In this document: positions 30,823 to 46,763 of the stretch, piece after piece
How the letters are laid out: every line of letters begins with the position of its first letter
How positions within the stretch are numbered: the stretch's first letter is position 1
IMG/VR virus record: IMGVR_UViG_3300028864_000019
Coordinates: 32,001 to 96,000 of that record
DNA length: 64,000 nt
DNA from: a virus
Direction: 5' to 3' (one strand)
Notes under the pieces: generated by a model
The model's input: the letters and a program-made list of their open reading frames with translations, nothing else
Database searches by the model: none
What the model was told of the DNA's origin: nothing
Program-made: the position numbers and the translations under genes

Positions 30823-31035
30823 TTAACTAACTTGATTTTTAAATGCAAAATATAATGATTTACTTTTAAAATATTTGTGACAATCAAACTTAGTATATAC
30901 TTTCCAATTCCCCTTAATACATGCTATTTGTTTGTCTGTTGGCTTGTCTTTCTTCCATTTAGCATTCTTATCTATAAAACTACTTCCATATGTATAAGCC
31001 ATATTATCAACATTATCTACTAACAATATTCCCAT
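30823..31035 (-). CDS. Short ORF, possibly the C-terminal remnant of a larger gene
   Basis: Overlaps the end of the GIY-YIG gene; AKWKKDKPTDKQI is reminiscent of SF2 helicase C-terminal tails. Confidence 0.35.
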   Translation of the reverse strand: MGILLVDNVDNMAYTYGSSFIDKNAKWKKDKPTDKQIACIKGNWKVYTKFDCHKYFKSKSLYFAFKNQVS

Positions 31036-32081
31036 ACTAAAAGAGTTCCATCTTCTAAACTACCACATGATTTTTGATGACTTAAACAACATTGACTTAT
31101 ACCACTTCTATCACAATTATAAAACTCTGAGGCTTCTCCTATACTGTTAAATTCTTTATTAGTTGTAATACATTTTACTTTCTTTTTTCTTTTTATACTT
31201 TGTAATTCAAGTGCCTTTTCTTTTGAATTCGCTTCATATATTTTTAAGTTTATATCAGCTTGTGTCATTTTTATAAAATCACTATATCTCACCCAAATAC
31301 AAGGTTTATTATTCAGCATTCCTGCATATCTTTGTTTATTATCACAACATTTTAATATTGTACCTATACTTATATTTTTTATATCTTTTTCATTATTAAT
31401 TATATCTGATGGTCTATCATATATAATTTTTGTTTCAATATTTACAATTCTTTTATCATTAATTGAACATTCCAATTCATATATTTTATCTTTTATCTTT
31501 TCAATATCTTCATTAGTTAATTTAGAATATTCTGATTCGTATATAAAATACATTTTTATACCTTTACCTTGTACTATATAAGCATTATTCATTGCCTTAT
31601 ATATACTCTTATAACTAGTATTGTAATATATTTTTGCAGTCTCTATAAGTTCAAAATGCTTATTATCTATCACATTAACTATTTGTTTTGCATTGGGATT
31701 TTTATTTCCATCAAATACTCCTTGTTTCAATTCTGACATTCTTTTTCTAGTTTCTTCATTTTGTACACCGTTATGTCCACCATCATCATTATTATAACCA
31801 TATAATCTATTATTGCTCTTATATAATACTATGTAGGATTTTTCTTTAATATCTAATTCATCTTTACTAAAAGCATAATCAATAATATCTAATTTAAAAT
31901 TATCTACTCCATATTTTTTAGCAGAATCCTTTAAATGCTTATTCTTTGAATATATCCACCATTCTCCTGCTGGATATCTCCTATTAAACTTATTTTTAGT
32001 TTGTCCAATATAAACTTTTTTATTAATTTGGTTTGTAATTCTATATATGATACCATATATTTTTAAATTACCTATTTTCAT
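31020..32081 (-). CDS. GIY-YIG homing endonuclease (NUMOD3/NUMOD1 repeats)
   Basis: GIIYRITNQINKKVYIGQT, ELDIKEKSYI, GYNNDDGG, EETRKRMS, FNSIGEASEFY. Confidence 0.92.
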   Translation of the reverse strand: MKIGNLKIYGIIYRITNQINKKVYIGQTKNKFNRRYPAGEWWIYSKNKHLKDSAKKYGVDNFKLDIIDYAFSKDELDIKEKSYIVLYKSNNRLYGYNNDDGGHNGVQNEETRKRMSELKQGVFDGNKNPNAKQIVNVIDNKHFELIETAKIYYNTSYKSIYKAMNNAYIVQGKGIKMYFIYESEYSKLTNEDIEKIKDKIYELECSINDKRIVNIETKIIYDRPSDIINNEKDIKNISIGTILKCCDNKQRYAGMLNNKPCIWVRYSDFIKMTQADINLKIYEANSKEKALELQSIKRKKKVKCITTNKEFNSIGEASEFYNCDRSGISQCCLSHQKSCGSLEDGTLLVWEYC

Positions 32082-32187
32082 GATGCATCAACCTTCCTTT
32101 TTTAATTTATTATCAACCTATTTAATATATAAGGGAAAACGTAGGTTGAAACGTCTTTCATTCAATTGATCAGATTGAACTATCCCT
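32082..32187 (-). ncRNA. Structured 5' leader (three-way junction plus pseudoknot) of the GIY-YIG gene
   Basis: Covaries with the copy at 42627..42737; see findings. Confidence 0.7.
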
Positions 32188-32480
32188 CTTATATAATACA
32201 ACATAGCTTTCTATTTTGGGTACTTTTTTATAATTTTTTAATTTATTTTTACTTGAAAACGTCAATCTATTAGATACTAATAAATGAAAGTTTCGCTATT
32301 TATTAGTATCTATAAATTTGACTGTTTGTTTTTATAGATACTAATAAATCAAAGTCTTACCATAGCGTCAATACTAATACGCCAGTATAGTGTAGTAATA
32401 TAACTAAATAACAATATAATCCATCAGTAATAAAATCCATAAGAAGATGAATTTACAGTTTCGCTAAAGCTCAACCCCTG

Positions 32481-33407
32481 CTACGCCTTTTCGTTTGGTT
32501 TCTTTTCTTCTTTTTCTTTTGTTAGTTCTTCATATTGTTCTGTTAGTAGCTTTATATTTTCAATATCAATTATGTTTGCTTGTCCTTCTTCTTGTCTTTT
32601 CTTTAGATATTTTAATTTGTTTGTAATTGACCTTTTTAAGTTACTCTTATCTTTGTTTCTTTGATTTACTTTTATAAATCCTTTTTTGATTCTTTCAATA
32701 TTTAATCTTTGTAATAGTAGATCTTCATTTCCTGTTCTAGTATAAAACATATTGCCATTCTTAATTTGTCCTTTTGAAGTCTCTTTAAATCCTGCATAAT
32801 CAAATACAAATATGTTTAAATCTCTAAGTATATTTATGTATTTTAAAGCTGTCTTTTCTGTTATTTCAGACATCTCAGCTATTTTAATTATACTTGGAAA
32901 TCCTAATAAATAATCTTCAGCTTGTACATTGTTATTAAAGGTACTGCATATGTATATGTAAGTTTTGATTAATGAATATGTATCAATTTTGTTTTTATTA
33001 CTATAATTTATTAATAACTCAATTTCACTATCTAGTATCATTGTAAAACCACTATCACCTATTTCATTAAATAACTCTGCAAAGATTAAGTCATTTTTGT
33101 TATAATCAATTATACTTTCTATAGTATCTTTGTCTTTTAAATATATATTATTGTAGTAAACTAATATTTCATCATTATAAAATGTTTGTAATATAGTTCT
33201 TATTTCCTTTTTGCCATATGTATTATTAGATTTTATTTGTAAAGATTTATATAACCATTCTAAATTAAAAATGCATGTGTCCTTTGAGTTCCTAGACATA
33301 TATAATAATGTTAAAACCGTTAATTCTTTAGGATCAAGCTCCTTATCATCTTTAATTAAATTATTAGGTATTCTTGTAAATTTTCCTTGTAGTTGTCTTT
33401 CTTCCAT
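32481..33407 (-). CDS. Winged-helix replication-initiator-like protein
   Basis: FTRIPN N-terminus; GFPSIIKIAEMSEITEKTALKYINILRDLNI HTH; paralogue of 48708..49739. Confidence 0.6.
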   Translation of the reverse strand: MEERQLQGKFTRIPNNLIKDDKELDPKELTVLTLLYMSRNSKDTCIFNLEWLYKSLQIKSNNTYGKKEIRTILQTFYNDEILVYYNNIYLKDKDTIESIIDYNKNDLIFAELFNEIGDSGFTMILDSEIELLINYSNKNKIDTYSLIKTYIYICSTFNNNVQAEDYLLGFPSIIKIAEMSEITEKTALKYINILRDLNIFVFDYAGFKETSKGQIKNGNMFYTRTGNEDLLLQRLNIERIKKGFIKVNQRNKDKSNLKRSITNKLKYLKKRQEEGQANIIDIENIKLLTEQYEELTKEKEEKKPNEKA

Positions 33408-33453
33408 ATATTTTTATATCTCCTTTTGCTTTTTGATTATTTGATTTATGTAA

Positions 33454-33651
33454 TTATTTTTCTAATCCTTTATATTGACTCATGGCTTCAGTAAGTTCTG
33501 GCGTATTTTTGAATAACCATACAACTTTTTTAGGTTCGAATATATTGGGTAAAGTATCAACTATTTCAAAACCCTTATCAGTTAAAAATTTAGTCATTGC
33601 TATAGTTCTAATTACATAATTCTCTTTATTGTTATTATTTACTTTATTCAT
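33454..33651 (-). CDS. DUF5659-like small protein
   Basis: YVIRTIAMTKFLTDKGFEI...PN...PKKVVWLFKNTPEL. Confidence 0.65.
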   Translation of the reverse strand: MNKVNNNNKENYVIRTIAMTKFLTDKGFEIVDTLPNIFEPKKVVWLFKNTPELTEAMSQYKGLEK

Positions 33652-33968
33652 AATACTTCATTCCTTCTTTTATATATTCTTTATCCTCTCTTATTCTGTA
33701 TTAATTTATCATTCATTCAGCATCTTATCAGCAACCTTTCAATGTTATTTATACTTATCATATATAATACAAAAGTTTTCTGTGATTTGGGTACTTTTTA
33801 TATATTAATTTATTGAGTTACTATCATTTGTTTATAGATTACTTAAAAAGTAGTCACTTCTCCCTTCAACTTTTATTGTACTACTAAAGGATTATATTGT
33901 CAAGCTTGCTTTAATTTGTTATATATTATTATAAAGCTAAATAAAAAGACCAACTATAAAAGCTGATC

Positions 33969-34691
33969 TTAATTATATAGATTTTGATTTATAGATACAT
34001 GAGAATGAAGTATACCTTCTTGACCATAATTACTTATAGAACCTTTTGCAATTACTTCAGTTTCAAAAGTATTTGTTCCATCATTATATTCATTACCTTG
34101 TTTTGCCATCTCATAATGTACAAGTTCATGAATTAAAACTTTTTCCGCTTTAATTTGATTTAAGTTACCTGATAAATCTGAATCTATAATAATTTGTATT
34201 GGTTTATTGTCTATTGTAAAAGTTGTTAATCCATTTATTTTCATATTAGAATCTGAGCTATTATATACCTTATTGAATACAATTGGAATGTTTAAAGTAT
34301 CATTATAATTATCTTTTAGGAATTGTTGAGCGTATTGTGTTAATTCTGCGTCAGTTTGTAAGCTATTAGTATATGTAGTTCCGTCTGTTCCTAAGTTATA
34401 TAGTTCTCTAAAATTTATAGCTGATCGCATTTGAATGATTTCATTATCTTTTAGTGTGATTGTAGCTTTATCATTTACTTGCCATCCGTCAGAACCTTCT
34501 TCATTTTCCATTAGATAAGTTTTATTATTGTCTGATTGGATTGTTACTGTTGAGTCTGTTACGCTTGTTATAGTTGCATTATGATTCTCTATTGTAGTTG
34601 CTTGGACTAATTGAGTTGGTGATATGATTATTAATAGTGTAATAACTCCTGTAAATATAGTTGCTTTTATTAGAGTTGATATTGATTTCAT
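33969..34691 (-). CDS. Secreted SprT-like zinc metallopeptidase
   Basis: N-terminal signal peptide ending VQA; VLIHELVHY (HExxH). Confidence 0.7.
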   Translation of the reverse strand: MKSISTLIKATIFTGVITLLIIISPTQLVQATTIENHNATITSVTDSTVTIQSDNNKTYLMENEEGSDGWQVNDKATITLKDNEIIQMRSAINFRELYNLGTDGTTYTNSLQTDAELTQYAQQFLKDNYNDTLNIPIVFNKVYNSSDSNMKINGLTTFTIDNKPIQIIIDSDLSGNLNQIKAEKVLIHELVHYEMAKQGNEYNDGTNTFETEVIAKGSISNYGQEGILHSHVSINQNLYN

Positions 34692-35372
34692 TATGATTAC
34701 TCCCCTTTATTTATATATTAATTTGTTATATTTATTATTATACTCTCATTATATGCGTTAATCAAATAAATTATAAAATAAATATATACATATATAATGA
34801 AGAGATTCTTTAAGTGTTGGTTATTAAGTGATCCAATATAGATTGTTAGCATTGTATTATTTATGTTATTAGTTCCATTACAAGGTAGTATATAAGGATT
34901 ATATGAGGTTCTATTGATTAAGTTATACAATTGTACTGTTATCTAGTTAATTGTTATATAGCCTTTATATATGTACATCTTATTAATGTTATTAGTACAA
35001 TTGGATCTGCTTTATAATGTATACTATTGTTATTGGTATAATAGTATTGTTTGTAATAAGTTATAATAAAGTTGTGCTTCATATTGACGTTGTATGAGGT
35101 CTTAGAGTTGTTAGTAATGTAATTGGTTGTCTTGATAGCTAAGTGTTGTATAAGGTTGTTAAGTTAGTTATAATAGATTTGTTATATTGTAGTGTTATTG
35201 TATCATTTATTACTGGTATTAGTGTATTGAGTTCATATAGTGTTTGATTATAATTATATGTTAGTGTTTGCTTTTATTATGATATACTATATAAATATAT
35301 GTGTTATACTAATTATGTATTGTGATATACTATATAGAAGAGTATTTATATTGTACTATTGTGTTAATACAA

Positions 35373-35565
35373 TGTGTATAAGTCTATCTATATTGTGGAT
35401 AACTATTTTAATTTGTTATACTTATATTGTATTGGCATTATCGGTTACCTGTTATTATGCTTAATTATGTGCTATTATAAAGGTTATTTGTATAATGTTA
35501 GTTATATTGGTTGTGGATAAGTCTGTTGATAACTTGTTCTTTATATGTTGATAACCTGTGTATAA
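35373..35565 (-). promoter_or_regulatory. Cluster of co-oriented DnaA boxes
   Basis: TGTGGATAA at 35394 and 35512, TGTGTATAA at 35373 and 35557, TGTTGATAA at 35524 and 35546 (reverse complement of TTATNCACA, or one mismatch). Confidence 0.7.
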
Positions 35566-36896
35566 GTTTAGTTAGTATAATATTGATTATAAGTGTTGCA
35601 ATCATCGACAACATTTGTCCACGATTATTCAAGTCAACTTCAAAACAATCAATCGTATTTTTAAATTGTATTCAATCAAACTGTCTCTTACTATCTATTC
35701 AGCTTATACTGGTCAAGTGATCCAATGTCACCTATTTAAGTTAAGATAAAAGCAACATTTTAACAATAGATGATATAAGTTATCAATTAAATAGTGTTCG
35801 TATCTGTTCAAATTATTCAACTAAATATGTATTTAATGGAATTGTTGTTGAAGTGTTGGTATGACTTGTCTGTAGGGTTTTATGTTGTGAATTAGTGGTT
35901 ATTTAATGTGGTTGATAATGGTTATTAATGTTTGGTTATTTGTTTTAATACATAGTATTCCTATAGGGGCGGTGCATTTACATTGTTATGTTCATTATCT
36001 GAACGCAATAGTCGGACATCACATATATCGGCATACCAACTTTGGAGTGTAGCGATTGGTAAAACACGAACGTTAATCAAAATGTGTATCGGTTGTGCTT
36101 TCGTTCAGCCTTGTTATACCAATACTTTAACTTATTTTTAAGTCATATATTTTACCATATTTACTACCCAATAACCCTCAAACCCACTAATACCAACCAC
36201 TCACACGAACTCCACTCTATAACAGTTATATAGCACACATCGTAAAATAAATTCAAACAACCTCAACCTGTTACTATCACTACTCTAACACCAATTATTC
36301 ACACCCTATTAAAACCCCGTCACGACAACTCCCTATCGTTAATTAAAATTCAAAAGATAATTAAAAAACAATTCAAAATAAAAAAGAGCCTACAGAAAAA
36401 TATTCTGCAAACTCAATTTGCTAATTATTTAATTATTAATATAAACTCAAAATATCAAAATCAACTACAACCACTCTCTCACAAATTCTAAACCCTATCT
36501 ACACTTATACCTAAAATAATCTATACCCTACTTACAATCCATCTCTAAGCTTGTCTAAATTACAAATCTATAAAAATAAATATACCAATCAAATAATTAA
36601 TTCAGCAAACAAAAAAGAGACTGCTCTAAATTAATTAAAATTCAAAACAGTCCCAATTGGAATAGAATGTTTACACAACTACATTATATCATTTTGTCTA
36701 TATCTTAACAACATCCTATATAGGATAAGGGAGGGGGTATATTTTTAAATCCAGAATCTAAGTACCTAATATATAATACCCTACCCTATATAAAATTGGA
36801 CATAAAAATAAGACCATACTAATTAAATATGATCTCAACTTAAATACTAAAAGCCAATACATTATTACTCCTACTATATAATCTACCAACCAATAA

Positions 36897-37202
36897 TCAA
36901 ATCCTAGCAATTTCAATATAACTTTTCATTAACTCCTTAACATCAGTATCACTAAGCCTATTTACAATATCAACTGTAATATCATTGAATTGGTTTACCT
37001 CATTACTCATAAAAATTAAAACCAATACTTGTACTAAAAACATTAATTCTAATCCAACTATACCAATTAGATTCTTATTTGTTATTATCTTAATTAAACT
37101 ATTATTCATTTTATTGCTATGTTCTTTTCTTATTTCCTTTAATGTAATTTCACCTGATTTATATTTATTGTATTGGGCTATTGTCATTGTTGTTGTTTTC
37201 AT
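36897..37202 (-). CDS. small membrane protein
   Basis: One TM segment; GGAGAG RBS. Confidence 0.65.
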   Translation of the reverse strand: MKTTTMTIAQYNKYKSGEITLKEIRKEHSNKMNNSLIKIITNKNLIGIVGLELMFLVQVLVLIFMSNEVNQFNDITVDIVNRLSDTDVKELMKSYIEIARI

Positions 37203-37325
37203 ATTAATATTCTCTCCATTACTTTATTATAGTATATACTATGAGTCAAACTTTTAATTTGTGCTATATTGTTAAATTAAATTTCTAGTATCTAAATCTC
37301 ATAATAATATAGTATTAAATAACTT

Positions 37326-37646
37326 TTAACTTTCGTTTGTAATAAAGTATTCATTACTACTTTCCTTAACTAATACTATCTTAGATTTAGTTCTTTCTGT
37401 TAATAAAAAATATCCTTCTAAAATGCACACCTTATCATAGATTAATATTTGATACCAGTCTATCTTTTCCATAAGTAACCTAATAACTTGAACCTTATCA
37501 TAATTATTAAAATCTTCTATATTTATGTTCTTTAATGTAAATTTAAAATCTCCAATAGTAAATTCAATATTTGTATAAAAAGATACACCTTCTTGTATCT
37601 CTTCATCTGTCATTTCTTTTATTGATTTAGTTTGTCCTTTCGCCAT
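37326..37646 (-). CDS. hypothetical protein
   Basis: 106-aa ORF. Confidence 0.6.
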   Translation of the reverse strand: MAKGQTKSIKEMTDEEIQEGVSFYTNIEFTIGDFKFTLKNINIEDFNNYDKVQVIRLLMEKIDWYQILIYDKVCILEGYFLLTERTKSKIVLVKESSNEYFITNES

Positions 37647-37711
37647 ATATAATACAACTCTTTATATAATTAATTACTATATAGTATATGCAATAGTATA
37701 CTTAAAGTTTC

Positions 37712-38122
37712 TTAAAATAACCTTAACGCCATATCAAAAACACAAATAACTAATAATACCCATCCAACAATCTCAATTGCTTTATCAAAGATTCCACCTG
37801 TTAAGAATAATCTCAATCCATATCTCTTATTTTTTAATGGCATAAATAATGGTATTCCACTTCTAGTCATGCTATCCAATACTAAATGACTTGAATAGGA
37901 CACAAACCAAATTAAGGCAATTTCTTTGCTAAATATATTTATAATTAATGTTGTAAATAACAAAAATATCAAACTATGTGTAAATGTTCTATGGAATGTC
38001 ATACCAAGTTTACAATCCAAATCTGGAGCAATTGAACCAAAAATTCCCAATAACCCTAATGGACTTGCCAGCATGGGAATACTTACCAATGTACCTATAA
38101 CTAAATGTGTTTTCTTTGTCAT
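37712..38122 (-). CDS. YdjM-family membrane metal-dependent hydrolase
   Basis: MTKKTH..G, GSIAPDLD, HRTFTHSL, SHLVLDSMTRSGIPLFMP. Confidence 0.9.
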   Translation of the reverse strand: MTKKTHLVIGTLVSIPMLASPLGLLGIFGSIAPDLDCKLGMTFHRTFTHSLIFLLFTTLIINIFSKEIALIWFVSYSSHLVLDSMTRSGIPLFMPLKNKRYGLRLFLTGGIFDKAIEIVGWVLLVICVFDMALRLF

Positions 38123-38612
38123 CGTAAAATCACGCTCCTTTTGTCGCTACGCAAGCCATGCCACTCCTACCCTTCCTATCGCTTAGGCTTTTTATTAGGT
38201 TAAATAGGGCTTTATACTTGTACTATTTGTCTAGTTATACTTTATGTCCTATAGTCTATATTTCCGTATCTATCGTATTACTGTACCTTATATCGTAGTT
38301 TACTATATAAAGCTTATTGTATTATTTCTTATCTTCTATATAGTATTCTCTATTTTACTTAAAACTATACTATGTATTTAAATTTAAACGCAAAAAATAA
38401 GACCATAACTTAATATGATCTTAATAATTTAAGTATTATATAATTTAAAATAGTACCTGACTAAACAACAATGCATAGTATTATAATTAATATTGTAAAT
38501 AATAAATGTGCTATTGTTTACATATCTAGTTTTCTTTCTATTTTATAGATTACAAGCATCATAAATTACTTTTTTAAGTTTATACGTATAATTTTCCTAT
38601 CTCTTAAAACTA

Positions 38613-38837
38613 TTAACTTGCAAAACTAGCTAACCATTTTATAAAACTACCAACCCAACCTTCACTTATACTGAAGCTAACACTATTTAACCATGTAAAA
38701 AGGTATATTCCTGTTCCAACCCAACCACATAACACCATTAATTCTCCAAATTCTTTTTTACCCATACATTTAAATATTTTAGATGATATAAAACTAGCTG
38801 ATCCAACTACTATGACATTTGATATCATATTAAACAT
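38613..38837 (-). CDS. SpoIIIAC/AD-like small membrane protein
   Basis: VG...ISSKIFKCMGKKEFGELMVLCG pattern (two TM segments around GK.E). Confidence 0.5.
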   Translation of the reverse strand: MFNMISNVIVVGSASFISSKIFKCMGKKEFGELMVLCGWVGTGIYLFTWLNSVSFSISEGWVGSFIKWLASFAS

Positions 38838-38845
38838 ATTATCAC

Positions 38846-39052
38846 CTATCCTATATGTGAAATTACTTGAATTAATTTTACTACTCCAGCAATTGCACTT
38901 ATAGCTATTTGACTATACCCTGCAATGCTTACATATTGTCCCATTTCTGTTTTCCCTAAATTGTTTAATATTTTTTCTCCTACTATTGAAGCTACTCCTA
39001 AAGATGTTAAACCTGCTATTACTACTGCGTTCATATTATATCTCTCCCTCAT
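38846..39052 (-). CDS. SpoIIIAC/AD-like small membrane protein
   Basis: LGVASIVGEKILNNLGKTEMGQYVSIAG resembles the SpoIIIAC pattern xLxxAG(K/R)EExAxxVTLAG. Confidence 0.55.
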   Translation of the reverse strand: MRERYNMNAVVIAGLTSLGVASIVGEKILNNLGKTEMGQYVSIAGYSQIAISAIAGVVKLIQVISHIG

Positions 39053-39344
39053 TATTATTTATTATTTAATACAATTCTATTATTTTTCTGTCATAATCTA
39101 CCTCATAAGATTCCACACTATATAAATCATAAATTACTTCTTCCATATCTTGTTCAGTGTTTATTTTAAAATCATTACATTCATTATAATATTCTCTATA
39201 GTCTTTTATAAAATTTTTAAAAGCAATTGTTTTCATATTTATTTCACCTCACATGTATATTATCTAAATTTAAGGTAATACTATTTATCATAAGGGATAC
39301 AAGAATTTGAATATCATCAGTTTTCAAATTCTTGTATATGAACA

Positions 39345-39689
39345 TTATTTTACGTTGGCTTTTGGAAATTGAATCACATTAGATTTAGCCTTGGACTGAG
39401 ATTGGGACTTTTTAGTTTTAGTCTCAGTTTTTGCTTTAACTTTTTTAGGTTGCTCAATTTCTTTATAATTTGCACACATGTTCTTGACAACTTTCCTAAG
39501 TTGAATTGTTACAAAATGAGTAACTTTATATGCAGTTTTAAATGTTCCTATAATTAATCTTCTTACGCTTCTTGGTACAAGTAATAATGCTACATTGACA
39601 AGAACCATCATTAATATTAATTGACCTAGTGAGTTTATTATGTATTTCATAAGAAATACCTCCTTCTTAAAGTTTATTTCATATCTCAA
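39345..39689 (-). CDS. membrane-anchored basic protein
   Basis: N-terminal TM segment, Lys-rich tail ending NVIQFP; likely start MKYIIN after AGGAGG. Confidence 0.65.
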   Translation of the reverse strand: MRYEINFKKEVFLMKYIINSLGQLILMMVLVNVALLLVPRSVRRLIIGTFKTAYKVTHFVTIQLRKVVKNMCANYKEIEQPKKVKAKTETKTKKSQSQSKAKSNVIQFPKANVK

Positions 39690-40032
39690 AAAGTGAGATA
39701 GCTTATCGTAAGTTTACTGAAATTGATTTGCTAATTACCAATAACTTATAATATAAATATCATTACAATGATTCATCTAGTATATAGTCAACTATTTATA
39801 CTGAATACCAATTAAGATTAAGTATTCAAACTTGACTTTCATTGCATATCTAGTATAAATAATCAAGCCATATACTAGATAAATATTGTAGTGATACCAT
39901 ATCATAAGTCTAGTAATTACATATCAATTCTTAAACTTATGATATATATCTATCTTTTGAAATTAGAATAATCTTATTCAGAATATTCTTTCTTTTGTGA
40001 TATGTATTCCTCCTTCAAGGAGGGGTATTTTA

Positions 40033-40659
40033 TTAATAGCATAATACTTTTGCTATATCTTCCATATTCACATCTAATTGAGTTATTTTAAATTGAGTAT
40101 CATTTTCTGCTTCATAATCTTTATTTGTATTTTGGATTATTATAAGTCGTGGCATTGTTAGTTCTTCTTCCCCTGTTTCTTCGTTTATTGCCCTTGTTTT
40201 ATCCAATATGGCATTTATAGTATCGTTATCTTTAAATCGTTTTAAATCTATATAATCATGTCTAATTTGCATTTCTACAATTTGATAATACATGTTTCCA
40301 TCAAATTTAAAAGATACATATAGATCTGGTTTAATATTATTAAATACAGGTTCTATCTCTATTTCTTGAATATCACATCCTAAAGTTTTCAATCCACACA
40401 AATATTCTAAAACTTTTATATTATGAATAGATACTCTTTTTATTTTAGAATCATATGGTACATAAACGAGTTCGTTGGTTTCTTGATTTTTAAAAACTCT
40501 GATATATTCTCCCATTTCAGCAATCTTTTTAAGTCTCTTTCTTGCAACATCATATGCATAACGTTTTTTTGTAAAATACATATCTGCTATATTTTTTATT
40601 GTTGCGTAGCCAATAGTCTCTATAAAATCTATTATCAGTTTATCTCTTTCAACTATCAT
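40033..40659 (-). CDS. Replication-relaxation (Replic_Relax)-like protein
   Basis: ERDKLIIDFI...ARKRLKKI wHTH, H...., IKPDLYV...IVEMQ nuclease-like motif; coupled to FtsK. Confidence 0.65.
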   Translation of the reverse strand: MIVERDKLIIDFIETIGYATIKNIADMYFTKKRYAYDVARKRLKKIAEMGEYIRVFKNQETNELVYVPYDSKIKRVSIHNIKVLEYLCGLKTLGCDIQEIEIEPVFNNIKPDLYVSFKFDGNMYYQIVEMQIRHDYIDLKRFKDNDTINAILDKTRAINEETGEEELTMPRLIIIQNTNKDYEAENDTQFKITQLDVNMEDIAKVLCY

Positions 40660-42146
40660 AATTTTCTTTTCCCTTCATTAATTGATTTTTTAGTATTACT
40701 AGGTAATTTAGTCTTATCAATAATAGTCATTCCTGTATAATTATCATAAGGAACACAATTAGGTATCTTAGACATGCCTTCTTCTAGCATTTCCTTTTCT
40801 GTTTTAATACGAGTGCCTACTTCTACTAACTTTCTCTTTCCTTGTTTAACTCCATCCCTATGTTGTAATTTCTCTAAGTCATCAAACAATGTTCTGTGAT
40901 TAGGTTTAATAAAAGGTTTTATATATTCATATATTTTTTTATTATCAACTATTGGAACTAATCCGTATTCCCATGAATCCAAATGATAAACTATTTCTCT
41001 TCTCTTTAAATCTAACGCCCTTTTGCTATCATCTGTGGCTATTTCACTTGACTTCTGATTTGCCTGTCTATATGATATATTTATATTTGACATTGCTTTT
41101 ATGAAGCTAGGGATATTATCAACTGTACTTCTTTGTACACTACTATAAAGAAAGACTGAAAGTGAAGCCCCGTATTGTGCAATGGATTCGATATATCCAC
41201 TTATTTCTTCTTTAAGTTTCTTTTCATCACTACCATTACCTTTTGTTTGAAAAAGTGCCATCATTTCATCAAAAGCAATCAGTATCATAGGTTCTTTTGT
41301 AAAAACCTTCTTTAACTCATTATATTCAAAGATATTATCAACTATTGCTTTTTTCCTATAAGGTTTTATTTTTGAAATTCTATCAGGTATAATTACTTCT
41401 TTTATATATTTCAATACGTCTCTTGTTTTCTCTAAAGTATCTGCAAAAGCTTTAGTATGAATTACATCCTCATATAGGCAGAGATCATTTTTTGCCACTT
41501 GACACAAGTACAATTGTAAATCTTCTGGACTACAATTTACTATTAAATTAGTTATCGTACAATCTTCTCCTTTTGATTTTCCGCTTCTTGTAGTTCCTGA
41601 TACTAATAGATGTGGATTTTTTCTCAAATCTCCAAATATAGCATTTCCAGCAAAATCATTGCATATAAATAGCTTATAAGGACTTTTCTCTTTAATAATT
41701 TCAAATCCCTTTTTGTCATTTTGATTAAATATAAACTTAGCATTTATCCATTTACTAGCCTTTGAATGATTAAATATAATACAACAACCTAAATTCTCTT
41801 CTATCATATCTCTTTGAGAGTCTAATTTATCAAATGTTAAAGGTGGAACTATATATATCTGTCCAGATAAACCGTAGGGTGTGAATTTGATTTTATTAAG
41901 AGCATAAGTAAAATACATTTTGTTATAAAGCCCTGATAAAGTCATAATATCTAACCATGTATTTTTAAATTTATTTATAACCGAAGATTTTTTAGATTCT
42001 TTTATTTCTTCTTTTTCCATTATTGCTATACATATTTTTTTGATTTGTTGTTCTAGTCGCCCTTGGCATTCTTTTTCTTCAGTGTTATCAGGTATTGTTT
42101 TAGGTTCTTTTACTTCTTCTTTTATTTCTTGTTTTAATAATTGCAT
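40656..42146 (-). CDS. FtsK/SpoIIIE-domain ATPase
   Basis: PHLLVSGTTRSGKS (Walker A), LIAFDE (Walker B), SVQR. Confidence 0.9.
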   Translation of the reverse strand: MQLLKQEIKEEVKEPKTIPDNTEEKECQGRLEQQIKKICIAIMEKEEIKESKKSSVINKFKNTWLDIMTLSGLYNKMYFTYALNKIKFTPYGLSGQIYIVPPLTFDKLDSQRDMIEENLGCCIIFNHSKASKWINAKFIFNQNDKKGFEIIKEKSPYKLFICNDFAGNAIFGDLRKNPHLLVSGTTRSGKSKGEDCTITNLIVNCSPEDLQLYLCQVAKNDLCLYEDVIHTKAFADTLEKTRDVLKYIKEVIIPDRISKIKPYRKKAIVDNIFEYNELKKVFTKEPMILIAFDEMMALFQTKGNGSDEKKLKEEISGYIESIAQYGASLSVFLYSSVQRSTVDNIPSFIKAMSNINISYRQANQKSSEIATDDSKRALDLKRREIVYHLDSWEYGLVPIVDNKKIYEYIKPFIKPNHRTLFDDLEKLQHRDGVKQGKRKLVEVGTRIKTEKEMLEEGMSKIPNCVPYDNYTGMTIIDKTKLPSNTKKSINEGKRKL

Positions 42147-42213
42147 ATCGTTTCCTCCTTTCTTTTAATATATACTATGATATTTCTTATTGATGTGTTA
42201 CAACTTTTTTATT

Positions 42214-42387
42214 TTAGAATGTGGAATTTTTAGATTCTTTATTTAGTCTATCTATTTTCCTTACTCGTGATCTAACATTCATCATTTCTATTTTATTCTC
42301 TTTGCTATTACCTTTAAAACAATAAACTGTATATGCAATGGTCATAGAAGCTAACCATCCACCTGCTAATATTAATATTTGTTGCAT
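42214..42387 (-). CDS. small single-TM protein (57 aa)
   Basis: MQQILILAGGWLASMTIAYTVYCFKG...; AAGGAG RBS. Confidence 0.6.
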   Translation of the reverse strand: MQQILILAGGWLASMTIAYTVYCFKGNSKENKIEMMNVRSRVRKIDRLNKESKNSTF

Positions 42388-42590
42388 TGTCTTTAACTCC
42401 TTATTGATTTCTTATAATATATACTATTCGATAATGATTTAAATGATACCCATTTAATGAAAATAATCATTAAATAATTACAAAAATCAGTCAAAAACAT
42501 CTAAATTTACATAATTTTTAGTAGTTTTAAATGATTATTTTGATTAAAATAGATATAAACTATAATCAAAACAAATTAATATAATAACAA

Positions 42591-42619
42591 TTGACAAGTA
42601 ATATTCTTTGTGATATACT
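42591..42619 (+). promoter_or_regulatory. sigma-A promoter of the endonuclease gene
   Basis: TTGACA-17-TATACT with extended TG. Confidence 0.8.
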
Positions 42620-42626
42620 AATCTTA

Positions 42627-42737
42627 AGGGATAGTTTAGTCTGATCAACTAAATGATAAAGGAGTATCAATCGCCCTTCCCTACTATATTTAGGATTGAT
42701 AACAAATTAAAATACATATTGAAAGGATTGATTGTTA
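42627..42737 (+). ncRNA. Structured 5' leader, second copy
   Basis: AGGGATAG-TTTAGT-CTGATCA-ACTAAA...TATCAATC...CCCT...GATTGATA. Confidence 0.7.
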
Positions 42738-44147
42738 ATGGAAGAAAAGAAAATTAAACAAGAAAAATTTAAAAAGGTGTTTTTAGATGATTTACCACAT
42801 GGAGGTAAAGGTGTTAAAAATTCAAGTATAAATTGGTTGGAATCTAAAAATTATAAAGTAAGATTCATTTATAACAATGTTGAAGGTTGGGTAGAAATTA
42901 CAGAAGTTAAAAGAGAAAATGGAAAAACTATGTTAGGTATAAAATATTTAGATAATGATATATTTTATATATTTACAGGTCACTTTCAACAATGTAAATT
43001 AAAAGAATTACTTGGACTAATAAACCATGATTACGTATATAAAGTTAATGAAATAATAAAAGACGAAAAAAGAAATCTATTAATATTAGAACAATTTTAT
43101 ATAAACGGATATAGATATTATAAATATGAATGTTTGAATTGTAGATATATTGGTACTATAGCTGAAAGTCATTTAAAAGAAGGAAAAAATTGTTCAATTT
43201 GCTCACATCAAAAAGTTCAAAAAGAAATTAATTCAATATGGGCAACTGATAATGAATTAGTTAAATATTTTGTTAATGAAGAAGAAAGTTATAAATATCC
43301 ACATTATAGTGAACAATCTATTAAAGTAAAATGTCCTGATTGTGGGTCTATACGAAAAATATCAATAATATCTTTATATATAAATGGATTCACTTGTCCA
43401 AAGTGTGGTGATGGAATTTCTATGCCTAATAAAATGATGTTTAACGTATTAGAACAATTATTAGAATTAGACAATTTCAAAAGAGAATATTCACCAGAAT
43501 GGATAGGCAGAAGATTATATGATTTTTACTTCATATATAATGAAAAAGAATATATAATTGAAATGGATGGTGGTTTAGGTCATGGTAATATGGTATATAA
43601 TGAAAATAATATGACTTCAGAAGAATCCTTAGAAATTGATGACTACAAAGATAAAATGGCTGTTGAACATGGAATGCAAAAACCTATTCGAATTGATTGT
43701 AATCCCAGCAAATTTGATTATATAAAAAATAATATATTAATGGATGATAGACTAAATAAACTATTTGATTTGTCTAAAATTGATTGGAATAATGTTTTTC
43801 AATATACTTTAACAAATCAAATGAAAGAAGCTTGTGATTTATGGAATGATGGTAAAAATGTTAAAGAAATAAGTAATGTTTTTAAAATTAGTACAGGTGC
43901 GATTCGTAGATATTTGAATGATGGAAATAAGTTAAATTTGTGTCATTATAATGGATCTGAAAATAGTAAGAATAGTAATATAAGAAATGTAATATGTATA
44001 GAATATAATTTGATGTTCAATTCCATAACAGAATGTGTAGAACAATTATCAAAAATGTTAAATTTAAAATTCAATATATGTAATATATCAGAGGTATGTA
44101 AAGGTAATAGAAAAACTCATAATAAATTACACTTTGAATTTGCATAA
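42732..44147 (+). CDS. Zinc-ribbon / PD-(D/E)XK-type free-standing endonuclease with NUMOD1-like tail
   Basis: Several CxxC pairs, REYSPEW..RRLYDFYF, IIEMDGGLGH, DDYKD.MA..HG..IRIDC, FNSITEC. Confidence 0.8.
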   Translation: MLMEEKKIKQEKFKKVFLDDLPHGGKGVKNSSINWLESKNYKVRFIYNNVEGWVEITEVKRENGKTMLGIKYLDNDIFYIFTGHFQQCKLKELLGLINHDYVYKVNEIIKDEKRNLLILEQFYINGYRYYKYECLNCRYIGTIAESHLKEGKNCSICSHQKVQKEINSIWATDNELVKYFVNEEESYKYPHYSEQSIKVKCPDCGSIRKISIISLYINGFTCPKCGDGISMPNKMMFNVLEQLLELDNFKREYSPEWIGRRLYDFYFIYNEKEYIIEMDGGLGHGNMVYNENNMTSEESLEIDDYKDKMAVEHGMQKPIRIDCNPSKFDYIKNNILMDDRLNKLFDLSKIDWNNVFQYTLTNQMKEACDLWNDGKNVKEISNVFKISTGAIRRYLNDGNKLNLCHYNGSENSKNSNIRNVICIEYNLMFNSITECVEQLSKMLNLKFNICNISEVCKGNRKTHNKLHFEFA

Positions 44148-44253
44148 ATTTTTAAAGCTTAGATTAATTTCTAGGCTTATTTTTTAATTGAAAACAAAAA
44201 AGCACCTACAATTAAAAAATGTAAGTGCTTGGACTGTTATTATTTATATTTGT

Positions 44254-45336
44254 TTAACTCCAAAAATCTGCATTCATCATATCTCGTAATTTTTGTTTTG
44301 TTGCAACTGGCTCTTCCTTGTTTGTATCTTTAGATGTGGTATTATTACTTTTATTTTTACTACCATTTTCTCTAAATTCAAATACTTTTTCTTCATCTTC
44401 TAATTCTTCGTCTTTCATATTATCATAAGCTTCTTGAAGAGTTTGTATATATTCATCTGGACTTGTTACCCCACCAAGTACCATTAAATTCTTACTGCCA
44501 TAATCGGTCTTTCCCCACATTTTAGCTTTAAATAATTCTTTCCATTCATCTTTATCATATATACCCTTTTCAAATATACCTCCCATATAAGAACAATCTA
44601 AATTATTAGGCATTACAAAAGGAGAATTATCCATACTATAATCTACTGCATCTACTAATGATTTGAATTTATCAGCCAATGGTAATATTACTTTATATTT
44701 GTTTGCTGAATTAATCATTTTAGTATCATTAATATCTACTGCCCCTTCTTGTAATTCATATGAATCTAAAATTAATTTCATACATAGTTTGTTAAATTCG
44801 TCTTCATTTTGCATTTTGTCATTGTCTATATATTGATAAGAATTGACTACCCCTTGAACTCTTAATTTTGTAATTTTTGAATGTAATTTAAGTGCATTTC
44901 CTATTGTTGTCTTTCCTTCTGACAATGCTGGCATAGCAACAACTAAATTAATTGCTAATTTTGAATTTAAATGCCTTAATACGTTAGTTAATGTTGTAAG
45001 TGAACCACCTCCAAATCCGCCACCACTAGCTAGATATATTGACGCAACATCATAATTATCTGTTTTATTAGCAAGGAAATTTATAAATTTACTTCTATCT
45101 TTTGATATGCTTTCTTGTGCTACATCTTGATTCCTTCCTGTACCACCACCATTTATTGCCAAGCCATTAATAGTTGAATTATAGTGTTTTAATCTCTTCA
45201 TTTCATTTATGTTAGAGTTCACAAATACACCATCGTATACCGATTGTAATACGTTTTCTGAATTATCTAATAAATCCATGAAAGTATCTAATAGTTTATT
45301 ACCTGTACCACCTGTCCCAATATTTAGTACGTTCAT
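44254..45336 (-). CDS. tubZ: TubZ tubulin/FtsZ-like partition GTPase
   Basis: IGTGGTGNK, GGGTGRN, SGGGFGGG tubulin signature; tubR upstream and tubY divergent, as in phage c-st. Confidence 0.9.
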   Translation of the reverse strand: MNVLNIGTGGTGNKLLDTFMDLLDNSENVLQSVYDGVFVNSNINEMKRLKHYNSTINGLAINGGGTGRNQDVAQESISKDRSKFINFLANKTDNYDVASIYLASGGGFGGGSLTTLTNVLRHLNSKLAINLVVAMPALSEGKTTIGNALKLHSKITKLRVQGVVNSYQYIDNDKMQNEDEFNKLCMKLILDSYELQEGAVDINDTKMINSANKYKVILPLADKFKSLVDAVDYSMDNSPFVMPNNLDCSYMGGIFEKGIYDKDEWKELFKAKMWGKTDYGSKNLMVLGGVTSPDEYIQTLQEAYDNMKDEELEDEEKVFEFRENGSKNKSNNTTSKDTNKEEPVATKQKLRDMMNADFWS

Positions 45337-46019: not shown

Positions 46020-46763
46020 TTGGATAACTTTAATGATAATGACAAACATATTGTAGATACTGACTTTATAGAAGTTGACATAGAAGAGAAATTAGAAAAT
46101 ATGAATATAAATAAAGAACCGTTATATTACACAAGGGTTCAAACAGCTAAAATATTAGGAGAGAATGAAAGTACTATTTCATATTGGAGCAAGCAATTTC
46201 AACCATTATTAAATTTAAAAATTATTAATATGACTAGGAAATATACAAAAATAGACATAGAAAACTTAATGTTTATTCAAAAATTACTTAGACAGGATCA
46301 TTTAACTATCCAACAAGCACTGGAGTACTGCTCAGAAAAAGGTTTTAATTCAGAATCAGGCTTAGTTGATAGTTCAAATCCATTAGCTGTTCAAACATTT
46401 ATATCAGCTATGACGGTAGAGTTTGATAAAAAGGTATCAGAAATGCAGAATACTATTATTCAGCAACAACGAGAAATGATAGAAAATTTACAGAGTATAA
46501 TCCTTCAAAATAATGAAGAACTCAAGCAAGAAATTTGTTTAACAGTAGATGAGGTGGTCACAGAAAAAATTAATGATTTTGAAAAGAATCTTATAGAAGA
46601 TCAGTCACAACAAATCCAAAATAACTTTAATAACATGAGTAATAAAATCATTAATGAAAATACTAAAATGATGAATGAGTTCAAATGTATCAAATTAGAA
46701 GAAATTCAAAAACAAGAAGAACCAAAAGGATTCTTTAGCAAAATATTCAATTTTAAGAACTAA
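46020..46763 (+). CDS. tubY: TubY, MerR-like HTH plus coiled coil plus amphipathic tail
   Basis: YYTRVQTAKILGENESTISYW..F, RKYTKIDI, coiled coil, KGFFSKIF C-terminus. Confidence 0.85.
   Translation: MDNFNDNDKHIVDTDFIEVDIEEKLENMNINKEPLYYTRVQTAKILGENESTISYWSKQFQPLLNLKIINMTRKYTKIDIENLMFIQKLLRQDHLTIQQALEYCSEKGFNSESGLVDSSNPLAVQTFISAMTVEFDKKVSEMQNTIIQQQREMIENLQSIILQNNEELKQEICLTVDEVVTEKINDFEKNLIEDQSQQIQNNFNNMSNKIINENTKMMNEFKCIKLEEIQKQEEPKGFFSKIFNFKN

What the first reader, a model, noticed from the sequence alone, without database searches (positions are those of the whole stretch)
32082..42737. Same pseudoknotted leader RNA upstream of two unrelated endonuclease genes
Seen: 32187->32082(-) AGGGATAG-TTCAAT-CTGATCA-ATTGAA-TG-AAAGACGT-TTCAACCT-ACGTTTT-CCCT...AGGTTGA...GGAAGGTTGA-ATG, and 42627->42737(+) AGGGATAG-TTTAGT-CTGATCA-ACTAAA-TGAT-AAAGGAG-TATCAATC-GCCCTT-CCCT...GGATTGATA...AAAGGATTGA-start. 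The CUGAUCA loop is invariant and its stem shows two compensatory changes. The second loop covaries with two downstream complements (UCAACC/GGUUGA vs UCAAUC/GAUUGA), the second of which overlaps the RBS. The genes encode different nuclease families (GIY-YIG vs Zn-ribbon PD-(D/E)XK). Known: T-even phage homing endonuclease genes are held down by RBS-sequestering structures. Inference: a portable two-state translational switch (decoy vs RBS pairing) used by toxic mobile nucleases.
Basis: partly seen in the sequence, partly recalled or inferred. Interest (0 to 1): 0.7.

Follow-up and report, generated by a model that had tools for sequence, protein, structure and literature searches.

The report
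Folded leader RNA before phage nucleases
Two selfish DNA-cutting-enzyme genes of this uncultured peat phage start with the same small three-armed RNA fold, a divergent relative of the catalogued but unstudied int-alpA RNA, in which one loop matches the gene's ribosome landing site plus a nearby decoy and another loop matches itself, so it most likely limits how much nuclease is made.

Summary
Both copies (32187-32132, minus strand; 42627-42682, plus strand) fold into a three-way junction at the predicted 5' end of the transcript. The P3 loop is complementary to two downstream sites, and the second site abuts the Shine-Dalgarno sequence. I found 50 distinct relatives in phage and metagenome contigs, with strong covariation in all three helices. 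Of 37 unique members tested, 27 keep the two-site plan, against about 4 for permuted loops. Downstream genes are mostly homing endonucleases of at least four families.

- The CUGAUCA loop is not invariant. Across the family it changes but stays self-complementary (UGAUCA, UAAUUA, UUGCAA, UAGCUA, UCAUGA), like the HIV-1 dimerisation loop. This suggests leader-leader kissing.
- The motif is not wholly uncatalogued. Rfam int-alpA (RF02996, function untested) matches two GC-richer family members full-length below threshold and has the same plan. It misses the window copies.

This scan has noted the family before on other DNA (67 notes, 46 genomes).

Best reading: a cis-acting translational brake with two states, decoy pairing versus RBS pairing, possibly set by RNA dimerisation. 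Function is inferred, not shown.

The parts
32132..32187 (-). Leader core, copy A. P1 is 32187-32184 with 32135-32132. P2 is 32179-32174 with 32166-32161, and its loop CUGAUCA is 32173-32167. P3 is 32157-32151 with 32142-32136, and its loop UUCAACCU is 32150-32143.
   Evidence: Sequence. CM R1 48.9 bits. CM R2 56.8 bits. The MFE fold reproduces the three-way junction.
32113..32120 (-). Site 1 (decoy) of copy A, UAGGUUGA, complementary to the P3 loop.
   Evidence: Duplex energy -10.3 kcal/mol.
32088..32094 (-). Site 2 of copy A, AGGUUGA. It overlaps the 3' part of the Shine-Dalgarno GGAAGG and ends 6 nt before the AUG.
   Evidence: Duplex energy -9.7 kcal/mol.
31020..32081 (-). Gene A: GIY-YIG homing endonuclease, 353 aa.
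   Evidence: Pfam GIY-YIG 30.8 bits against a cutoff of 22.6. PHROG homing endonuclease families. TIGR01453 52.2 bits, below its cutoff.
42591..42619 (+). Sigma-70-type promoter of copy B: TTGACA, 17 nt, TATACT with an upstream TG. It ends 7 nt before the leader's first base.
   Evidence: 11 of 12 matches, the best in the region. This is a consensus match only; the transcription start is inferred.
42627..42682 (+). Leader core, copy B. P1 is 42627-42630 with 42679-42682. P2 is 42635-42640 with 42648-42653, and its loop CUGAUCA is 42641-42647. P3 is about 42659-42664 with 42674-42678, and its loop is 42665-42673.
   Evidence: Sequence. CM R1 50.9 bits. CM R2 58.2 bits.
42694..42701 (+). Site 1 (decoy) of copy B, GAUUGAUA.
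42726..42732 (+). Site 2 of copy B, GAUUGAU. It overlaps the 3' end of the Shine-Dalgarno AAGGA and ends 5 nt before the AUG.
42738..44147 (+). Gene B: 469-aa homing-endonuclease-like protein with Zn fingers, a Vsr-like/EDxHD-like nuclease domain (residues 224-344), a helix-turn-helix and an I-HmuI-like C-terminal DNA-binding domain.
   Evidence: phrog_4538 E = 2.5e-60. 497 homologues, some carrying DUF4379 or NUMOD domains, or named very-short-patch-repair endonuclease by JGI. Invariant D262, E275, D301, K304 and near-invariant D277, H282. AF2 model pLDDT 88.8. I-Bth0305I Z 7.9, Vsr Z 7.8, I-HmuI Z 8.2.
44155..44178 (+). Terminator-like hairpin followed by a T run, just after gene B.

Best explanation
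Each element is the 5' leader of its nuclease mRNA. It belongs to a large phage RNA family that is a divergent branch of Rfam int-alpA.

Structure. The RNA folds into a three-way junction. P1 is formed by the very 5' end of the transcript and stacks on P3. P2 branches off through the conserved UAG/UGA letters.

Mechanism, inferred. The P3 loop is an anti-RBS sequence. When it pairs with site 2, at or next to the Shine-Dalgarno sequence and 0-12 nt before the start codon, the 30S subunit cannot bind and the nuclease is not made. When it pairs with the equally good decoy site 1, 8-19 nt after P1, the RBS is free.

The input that sets the balance, more weakly inferred. I take it to be leader-leader pairing through the self-complementary P2 loop. 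Output would then depend on the concentration of the message: a self-contained dose limiter, or a timer, that needs no protein specific to any nuclease family. Which state the dimer favours is not known.

Shown here: the fold, its covariation, the two complementary sites and their positions, the self-complementarity of the loop, and the link to nuclease genes. Inferred: transcription start, translational effect, dimerisation and its direction.
For: Fold:
- In 38 aligned members, 96.6% of cells are paired against 70.5% in shuffles, 13 of 16 pairs change on both sides, and 0 of 500 shuffles reach this.
- A second set found through protein homology gives 94.6% against 68.2%.
- In the first five P2 pairs G-U cells number 14 against 1 other mismatch, as expected for RNA made from this strand.

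Anti-RBS loop:
- 27 of 37 unique members have two separate perfect complements of at least 5 nt to their own P3 loop within 75 nt. Permuted loops give a mean of 3.8 and a maximum of 10 in 2000 trials.
- Site 2 ends 0-12 nt before the start codon.
- In phages with a Bacteroidetes-type TAnnTTTG promoter box and no Shine-Dalgarno sequence, the sites are arbitrary words (GUUGACA, UAAACGC, CUCAGUUC). The match is therefore not a by-product of SD-like composition.
- The two sites are equally strong: -9.1 against -8.8 kcal/mol.

Self-complementary loop:
- 12 of 18 distinct loops hold a palindrome of at least 6 nt. Shuffles give a mean of 1.3 and a maximum of 7 in 20000.
- 11 of 12 distinct loops in the independent set do too, by my reading of the loops printed (the parser missed one); they include a new palindrome, UCAUGA.
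- L377 and L381 are about 95% identical over 275 nt, yet differ by four adjacent loop changes (UAAUUA to UUGCAA) that keep the palindrome.
- No second cis copy of the palindrome is present: 3 of 33.
- L548, a close relative of copy B, keeps the promoter, P3 and both sites but has UAAUUA.

Context:
- A promoter-like -10 element or Bacteroidetes -7 box lies just upstream in 30 and 8 of 48 members. Copy B has an 11/12 promoter ending 7 nt upstream.
- Among 33 downstream ORFs: NUMOD4+HNH_3 in 8, DUF4379 in 4, GIY-YIG in 4, HNH_repeat in 3, HNH in 1.

Precedent:
- RBS-sequestering RNA structures control T-even homing endonuclease genes (PMC2988022).
- Six-nucleotide palindromic apical loops drive dimerisation of HIV-1 and oskar RNAs (PMC7357161).
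Against: - No expression data exist for this DNA.
- The transcription start is inferred from consensus matches, and copy A has no clear -35 element.
- The pseudoknot and the kissing contact cannot be scored by the folding tools here.
- The sites are equal in strength, so nothing in the sequence says which state is the default, and the direction of any dimer effect is a guess.
- 10 of 37 members lack the two-site plan. Most of these are leaders without a nuclease gene behind them.
- Some loops are not clean palindromes: GUCGCUC in L449, GUUGUGA only with G-U pairs, and L544.
- The strictly conserved junction letters (A-UAG, UGAYAAG, CUUC) are not explained by this model and could mark a binding site for a ligand or a host factor.
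- Rfam types int-alpA as an sRNA gene. L165 carries promoter, leader and site 1 followed directly by a terminator-like hairpin and no nuclease gene, so a trans-acting role is possible.
- Most homologous nuclease genes lack the leader: 32 of 46 and 61 of 76 loci.
Confidence: 0.55

Rival explanations
1. The element is mainly a trans-acting small RNA, as Rfam types int-alpA. Short leader-only transcripts would find nuclease mRNAs through the kissing loop and mask their RBS with the P3 loop. This could allow one genome to silence a nuclease gene carried by a co-infecting relative.
For: Solo leaders exist. L165 has promoter, leader and site 1, then a terminator-like hairpin, where its relative L153 has site 2 plus a 430-aa nuclease gene. 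L134, L168 and L169 are also leader-only. Two P3 loops in a dimer would match the two sites on one message. Many AT-rich members have a U-rich run right after P1.
Against: In most members the leader is contiguous with the nuclease ORF, with no terminator between them, and sites 1 and 2 lie in cis. The U-rich run is absent from GC-rich members (L145, L268). Solo leaders have mostly lost the sites, as expected of remnants.
Confidence: 0.15
2. The three-way junction is an aptamer for a small molecule or a universal host factor (ribosomal protein, RNase, ribosome). Binding of that factor, not dimerisation, decides whether the P3 loop takes the decoy or the RBS.
For: The junction letters (UAG, UGAYAAG, CUUC) are nearly invariant from 24% to 69% GC and across Firmicute-type and Bacteroidetes-type promoters. 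That degree of conservation is typical of a binding pocket. Anti-SD versus anti-anti-SD logic is classic riboswitch design (established knowledge).
Against: The junction is very small, with about 5 unpaired letters. No ligand is suggested by the gene context: selfish nucleases, integrases. The model leaves the self-complementary loop unexplained.
Confidence: 0.15
3. The fold acts on RNA stability or processing rather than on initiation. A base-paired 5' end would protect the message. A kissing dimer would stack P2, the kiss and the partner's P2 into about 24 bp, long enough for RNase III, giving concentration-dependent decay.
For: P1 pairs the predicted first nucleotides of the transcript. P2 plus the kiss plus the partner's P2 would give about 9+6+9 bp. 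RNase III is present in all the inferred host phyla (established knowledge).
Against: It does not explain why the P3 loop tracks the RBS region and a decoy in 27 of 37 members. No cleavage data exist.
Confidence: 0.1
4. It is a DNA-level signal: an operator for a dimeric repressor, a recombination site, or the homing target itself.
For: P2 is an inverted repeat placed at about +8 to +30 of a promoter. In two phage groups the leader stays while the ORF behind it is lost or exchanged.
Against: The stems covary freely instead of keeping a sequence. In the first five P2 pairs G-U pairs are common and A-C pairs are nearly absent: 14 against 1 other mismatch. The 6-nt loop palindrome is offset from the stem's symmetry axis. 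P1 and P3 also covary, and P3 tracks downstream sites.
Confidence: 0.03

Closest known systems
Rfam RF02996, int-alpA RNA motif (typed 'Gene; sRNA'). By my recollection it is one of the candidates of Weinberg et al. 2017, PMC5737381. Its function is untested, and the only paper in the held library that names the RNA (PMC12370729) merely lists it.
   Same: The plan is the same in the Rfam consensus printed: P1, UAG, P2 hairpin, GAAAAG, P3 hairpin, CU, the 3' strand of P1, then a tail ending in AgGG that can pair with the CCuU of the P3 loop. The Rfam model aligns end to end (positions 1-71) with two family members that my own models also find: L268 at 26.6 bits and L035 at 28.3 bits.
   Different: Neither window copy is found by RF02996 even at E <= 10, and no member tested reaches the gathering score of 35.8. 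The context here is homing endonuclease genes in AT-rich phages, not int/alpA. P1 is 4-5 bp here against 8 bp in the Rfam consensus. The anti-RBS and decoy reading and the self-complementary P2 loop are not part of the Rfam record as far as I can see.
RBS-sequestering RNA structures of T-even homing endonuclease genes (I-TevI, I-TevII, I-TevIII, segB, mobE of Aeh1), PMC2988022.
   Same: A toxic mobile nuclease is held down by pairing of its ribosome-binding site with an upstream sequence in the same message.
   Different: In T4 a simple hairpin forms only on long early transcripts, and a late promoter inside it releases the RBS. Here the promoter lies upstream of the whole fold. The anti-RBS sits in a hairpin loop of a conserved three-way junction (a pseudoknot), there is a decoy copy, and the fold is shared across nuclease families and host phyla.
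Kissing-loop dimerisation sites: the HIV-1 DIS and the oskar 3'-UTR loop (PMC7357161).
   Same: An apical loop carries a six-nucleotide palindrome, and its sequence may change as long as self-complementarity is kept. The 9-nt versions here (AG-UAAUUA-A, AG-UUGCAA-A) have the DIS layout of two 5' purines, the palindrome and a 3' A.
   Different: Dimerisation is not shown here. The context is a phage mRNA leader, and the palindromes are AU-rich, of the form U-NN-N'N'-A. The review notes that functional RNA oligomers have rarely been observed in nature.
SD-sequestering pseudoknot expression platforms of riboswitches (for example preQ1-II, SAM-II) and inert primary transcripts of type I toxin mRNAs (hok, aapA1). 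This item rests on my own knowledge.
   Same: A loop or upstream anti-SD sequence pairs with the SD to shut off initiation. Alternative pairings decide between ON and OFF.
   Different: No ligand or antisense partner is known here. There is one anti-RBS sequence with two targets, rather than two anti-SD sequences with one target.

Membership tests
Rfam RF02996 int-alpA | Scores at or above the curated gathering score (35.8 bits) with the Rfam covariance model. | tested here: not met
   The window copies give no match even at E <= 10. The best family members reach 26.6 bits (L268) and 28.3 bits (L035), both below the cutoff.
Rfam RF02996 int-alpA | Three-helix junction with conserved UAG after P1, a GA(A/U)AAG linker before P3, CU(U) before the 3' strand of P1, and a 3' tail complementary to the P3 loop. 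| tested here: met
   The Rfam consensus and structure line were compared with alignments A5/A6 and with the window sequences.
Rfam RF02996 int-alpA | Continuity through intermediate sequences that both models recognise. | tested here: met
   L268 and L035 are found by R1, which was built from AT-rich members only (33.7 and 41.8 bits), and by RF02996 full length. Only two bridges were found. L145 is not hit.
Rfam RF02996 int-alpA | Genomic context next to integrase or alpA genes. | tested here: not met
   The window copies precede GIY-YIG and Vsr-like nuclease genes. Among 33 downstream ORFs only one is an integrase, most likely L268's (the tally does not name the member).
T-even type RBS-sequestering hairpin of homing endonuclease genes | The RBS is complementary to an upstream segment of the same transcript. 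| tested here: met
   Site 2 overlaps or abuts the SD in both copies and lies 0-12 nt before the start codon in the family.
T-even type RBS-sequestering hairpin of homing endonuclease genes | An internal (late) promoter gives a shorter transcript that lacks the inhibitory strand. | tested here: inconclusive
   The only strong promoter match for copy B lies upstream of the whole leader. No match was seen between the P3 loop and site 2, but the scan covers sigma-70 consensus only.
DIS-like kissing-loop dimerisation element | An apical loop with a self-complementary hexamer, maintained through sequence change. | tested here: met
   five different U-NN-N'N'-A hexamers; 12 of 18 and 11 of 12 distinct loops (the latter from my reading); the L377/L381 four-base swap.
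DIS-like kissing-loop dimerisation element | The RNA forms dimers that depend on the palindrome. | not testable with these tools
   This needs native gels, AUC or SEC-MALS with loop mutants and compensatory pairs.
Riboswitch | A conserved aptamer that binds a metabolite and changes the expression platform. | not testable with these tools
   The junction letters are conserved, but there is no candidate ligand.
GIY-YIG homing endonuclease (gene A) | GIY-YIG catalytic domain above the Pfam cutoff. | tested here: met
   PF01541 scores 30.8 bits against a cutoff of 22.6. PHROG homing endonuclease families E = 5.7e-18.
Vsr-like / EDxHD (I-Bth0305I-type) homing endonuclease (gene B) | Vsr-like nuclease fold with conserved acidic and histidine residues. 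| tested here: inconclusive
   Residues 224-344 align with I-Bth0305I (Z 7.9, rmsd 3.7, 97 aligned), Vsr (Z 7.8, rmsd 3.7, 111 aligned), VRR_NUC and NGO0050. The Z values are middling by the tool's own note. D262, E275, D301 and K304 are invariant and D277 and H282 near-invariant in 40 homologues. JGI names some homologues very-short-patch-repair endonuclease.

The most novel reading that the evidence does not exclude
The leader is an RNA-only sensor of its own concentration. Two copies of the message kiss through the self-complementary P2 loop, and the dimer shifts the P3 loop between decoy and RBS. A selfish nuclease gene would then carry a protein-free, host-independent dose limiter (or gene-dosage timer) that works in any genome it lands in. 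The frequent change of the palindrome, and the differing loops of the two copies in 4 of the 5 two-copy loci whose loops I read (L240, L473, L377, L449; the window's two copies share one), would then serve to keep different leaders from cross-pairing.
Probability: 0.3. Interest if true: 0.9.

Novelty: new variant of a known kind. Interest (0 to 1): 0.6.

Why it matters
Homing endonucleases must be made in small, well-timed amounts, and how free-standing ones outside the T-even phages are controlled is largely unknown.

This work points to a single small RNA fold that heads nuclease genes of at least four unrelated families in phages of several host phyla. It also gives the orphan Rfam family int-alpA a concrete, testable function: anti-RBS loop, decoy and RBS.

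The self-complementary loop, kept through repeated sequence change, would be a rare natural case of regulatory mRNA dimerisation in phages if confirmed. It would also be a compact, portable part for expression control.

For this window itself the finding is one more instance of a family that the scan has met repeatedly.

Tried and rejected
- Rfam at gathering threshold on the whole window gave only a tRNA. At E <= 10 on both leader regions it gave only chance-level snoRNA/miRNA rows and a 15-bit DUF2815 row.
- blastn of both leaders against 50,697 phage records gave only short chance matches. The L377 leader and the TubZ/Rep region of the window had no match.
- Hammerhead, tRNA-like, CsrA-site and 16S-tail-mimic readings of CUGAUCA/GAUCA were considered. 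I dropped them once the loop proved variable.
- Intrinsic terminator reading of P1/P3 plus a U run: the run is absent from GC-rich members.
- Cis partner for the palindrome: none found.
- A tiny UUG-started ORF at site 1 in copies A and B is not seen in other members.
- Literature searches for the motif, CUGAUCA, homing endonuclease plus kissing or dimerisation, and int-alpA found no paper that describes the leader's function. The supplement of PMC5737381 is not held.
- No RNA holder was listed among the sequencing runs; all are peat metagenome DNA contigs.
- Laying contigs of four runs gave fragmentary cover. One relative contig jumps from 31022 to 32742, letters between not known, which is too uncertain to define the mobile unit.
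- The search for related loci found no viral-contig relatives with protein B alone, and alignment A9 was too diverse to use.
- Foldseek of the whole B model against PDB gave nothing below E = 0.001.
- Complex prediction was not used, because no protein-protein claim is made.


Full report
**What is in the window**

The window is part of a 111.9-kb IMG/VR virus record, about 54% complete, of about 25% GC. It was recovered from peat metagenomes. It carries plasmid-like genes: a tubulin/FtsZ homologue, a Rep3 initiator and an FtsK-like ATPase.

The two claimed elements are present as described.
- Copy A, minus strand, is 32187-32132. It is followed by site 1 (32120-32113), site 2 (32094-32088) and the AUG of a 353-aa GIY-YIG protein at 32081.
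- Copy B, plus strand, is 42627-42682. It is followed by site 1 (42694-42701), site 2 (42726-42732) and the AUG of a 469-aa protein at 42738.
- A 29-nt pattern spanning the conserved 5' half occurs twice in the window and never in 100 shuffles. A relaxed 20-nt pattern and a covariance model find just these two copies in the whole record.
- Copy B is an autonomous unit. An 11/12 sigma-70 match with an extended -10 ends 7 nt before the leader, and a terminator-like hairpin follows the ORF.
- Copy A has only a -10-like TATTAT upstream.

**The genes**

Gene A is a GIY-YIG homing endonuclease.

Gene B has no Pfam hit but matches phrog_4538 over its whole length. It has 497 homologues, some with DUF4379 zinc fingers or NUMOD domains, or JGI's name 'very-short-patch-repair endonuclease'.

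An AlphaFold2 model of B (pLDDT 88.8) gives these matches:
- Residues 224-344 align with the catalytic domain of the homing endonuclease I-Bth0305I (Z 7.9), with Vsr (Z 7.8) and with VRR_NUC.
- Residues 412-469 align with the C-terminal DNA-binding domain of I-HmuI (Z 8.2).

Acidic residues D262, E275 and D301 and K304 are invariant, and D277 and H282 near-invariant, in 40 homologues.

The catalytic domains of A and B are unrelated. However, the last 70 aa or so of A match the C-terminal end of phrog_4538, the family of B, at E = 1e-8.

**A large family**

Exact-pattern scans of viral, genome and metagenome contigs, filtered for a complementary P2 stem, gave many relatives. From these I built two covariance models.

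Two protein-first searches, blind to the RNA, added more:
- 14 of 46 loci encoding relatives of one NUMOD4-HNH nuclease carry the leader.
- 15 of 76 loci encoding relatives of gene B carry it.

In all there are 50 distinct cores. The consensus is: N-GGG-A-UAG-[P2]-UGA-Y-AAG-[P3]-CUU-CCC-N'.

All three helices covary:
- 96.6% of cells are paired against 70.5% in shuffles, 13 of 16 pairs change on both sides, and 0 of 500 shuffles do as well.
- The independent set gives 94.6% against 68.2%.
- P1 itself changes from GGG/CCC to AAG/CUU in some members.
- G-U pairs are common and A-C pairs nearly absent in P2, so this is RNA of this strand, not a DNA palindrome.

A -10-like hexamer or the Bacteroidetes TAnnTTTG box lies just upstream in 30 and 8 of 48 members. 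The first base of P1 is therefore probably the 5' end of the transcript. This is inferred, not shown.

**The P3 loop and its two targets**

In 27 of 37 unique members the P3 loop has two separate perfect complements of at least 5 nt within the next 75 nt. Loops permuted among members give a mean of 3.8 and at most 10 in 2000 trials.
- Site 1 starts 8-19 nt after P1.
- Site 2 ends 0-12 nt before the start codon.
- The two duplexes are equally stable on average: -9.1 and -8.8 kcal/mol.
- In members with Bacteroidetes-type promoters and no Shine-Dalgarno sequence, the repeated word is arbitrary (GUUGACA, UAAACGC, CUCAGUUC, UUCGGU). This rules out a by-product of SD-like composition.

Members without the sites are mostly leaders with no nuclease gene behind them.

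**The P2 loop is self-complementary, not invariant**

- Twelve of 18 distinct loops in the first set hold a Watson-Crick palindrome of at least 6 nt. Shuffles give a mean of 1.3 and a maximum of 7 in 20000.
- 11 of 12 distinct loops in the protein-first set do too, by my reading of the loops printed (the parser missed one).
- The hexamers are UGAUCA, UAAUUA, UUGCAA, UAGCUA and UCAUGA, all of the form U-NN-N'N'-A. Some 4-nt cases also occur (GUAC, CGCG, GGCC).
- L377 and L381 are about 95% identical over 275 nt but differ by four adjacent loop substitutions that turn UAAUUA into UUGCAA.
- L548, a close relative of copy B with the same promoter, P3 loop and sites, has UAAUUA.
- The palindrome has no second copy in cis: 3 of 33.
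- Its axis is offset from that of the stem.

The natural reading is an intermolecular kissing contact, as in the HIV-1 DIS and the oskar loop (PMC7357161). Exceptions exist: GUCGCUC in L449, GUUGUGA only with G-U pairs, and L544.

**Relation to a catalogued family**

Rfam 15 gives nothing for the window copies, even at E <= 10. Notes of earlier agents of this scan (67 notes in 46 genomes) pointed to int-alpA, RF02996. I tested this.
- RF02996 finds nothing in this virus record.
- It aligns over its full length with the leader of L268 (26.6 bits) and with that of L035 (28.3 bits). The tally of downstream ORFs holds one integrase, most likely L268's. Both scores are below the gathering score of 35.8.
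- The printed Rfam consensus has the same plan and junction letters, including a tail that can pair with the P3 loop.

So the nuclease leaders are a divergent, sub-threshold branch of int-alpA. The only paper in the held library that names the RNA merely lists it (in the other hit, the term is the int-alpA-pri gene module), so its function is untested. No paper found describes this leader's function.

**Gene context and mobility**

Of 33 downstream ORFs, 8 are NUMOD4+HNH_3, 4 DUF4379, 4 GIY-YIG, 3 HNH_repeat, 1 HNH, 1 integrase and 1 RuvC; the last sits behind a solo leader.

The leader does not always travel with the ORF.
- L165 lacks the 1323 bp (site 2 plus ORF) present in L153, between short direct repeats. 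It keeps promoter, leader and site 1, now followed by a terminator-like hairpin.
- In L484-L498 the leader, both sites and the first 25 codons or so are nearly identical, while the rest of the nuclease diverges.

**Mechanism**

I commit to a cis-acting translational brake. The P3 loop masks the ribosome-binding region (OFF) or is held by the decoy (ON). I put about 0.75 on RBS masking as such.

The input that sets the balance is most likely leader-leader kissing through P2 (about 0.5). This would make output depend on message concentration without any family-specific protein. That would fit a device shared by unrelated nucleases and host phyla. The direction of the effect is unknown.

Rivals, in order of weight:
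- a trans-acting sRNA;
- a ligand or host-factor aptamer at the conserved junction;
- a stability or RNase III element;
- a DNA-level signal, which is disfavoured.

Compared with the T-even paradigm (PMC2988022), the logic of hiding the RBS is shared. The differences are the conserved junction, the loop-borne anti-RBS, the decoy and the self-complementary loop.

**Verdict**

This is a new variant of a known kind: a sub-threshold branch of a catalogued orphan RNA, working like known RBS-masking leaders. Its untested dimerisation feature would be remarkable if true.

Noticed in passing
window 44254-45336 (-), 47304-48473 (+), 40656-42146 (-), 46020-46763 (+): The virus record carries a tubulin/FtsZ-family GTPase (TubZ-like), a Rep3-type replication initiator, an FtsK/SpoIIIE-like ATPase and a MerR-type regulator. 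This suggests a phage that is kept as a plasmid.
   Followed up: no
window 32262-32321 and 32340-32270 (upstream of copy A): The word UUUAUUAGUAUCU occurs three times, once inverted, forming a long AT-rich hairpin between the upstream ORF (32481-33407, minus strand) and copy A. It may be the terminator of the upstream gene or an operator.
   Followed up: no
window 61568-61654 (+): A tRNA gene with a long variable arm: 51.1 bits, 87 nt.
   Followed up: no
L083:575-808 (+): A full T-box leader (RF00230, 128 bits) lies about 150 nt downstream of a solo, decayed leader in a bioreactor metagenome contig.
   Followed up: no
L153:3096-4418 versus L165: A presence/absence polymorphism of a 430-aa DUF4379 nuclease gene. 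The 1323-bp segment (site 2 plus ORF) is flanked by a short direct repeat (AUAUAUU..ACU). The allele without the nuclease gene keeps promoter, leader and site 1 and then runs into a terminator-like hairpin.
   Followed up: partly
L240, L377, L449, L473, L495 (two leader copies each): Five loci carry two leader copies. In the four whose loops I read, the P2 loops of the two copies differ: UGAUCA/GGCC, UAAUUA/UAGCUA, GUCGCUC/UUAUAG and UGAUCA/UUGCAA. L495's second loop was not read. Both window copies have UGAUCA. There are too few cases to test for avoidance of cross-pairing.
   Followed up: partly
window 31023-32741: In two peat metagenome runs a higher-depth contig of a relative matches up to 31022, the stop of gene A, and resumes at 32742. 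That relative may lack gene A, its leader and the intergenic region. The letters between are not known.
   Followed up: no
window 31020-31230 (C-terminus of protein A) and 43970-44147 (C-terminus of protein B): The two nucleases appear to share a C-terminal module of about 70 aa (phrog_4538 C-terminal end, E = 1e-8 for protein A). In B it resembles the I-HmuI DNA-binding domain.
   Followed up: partly
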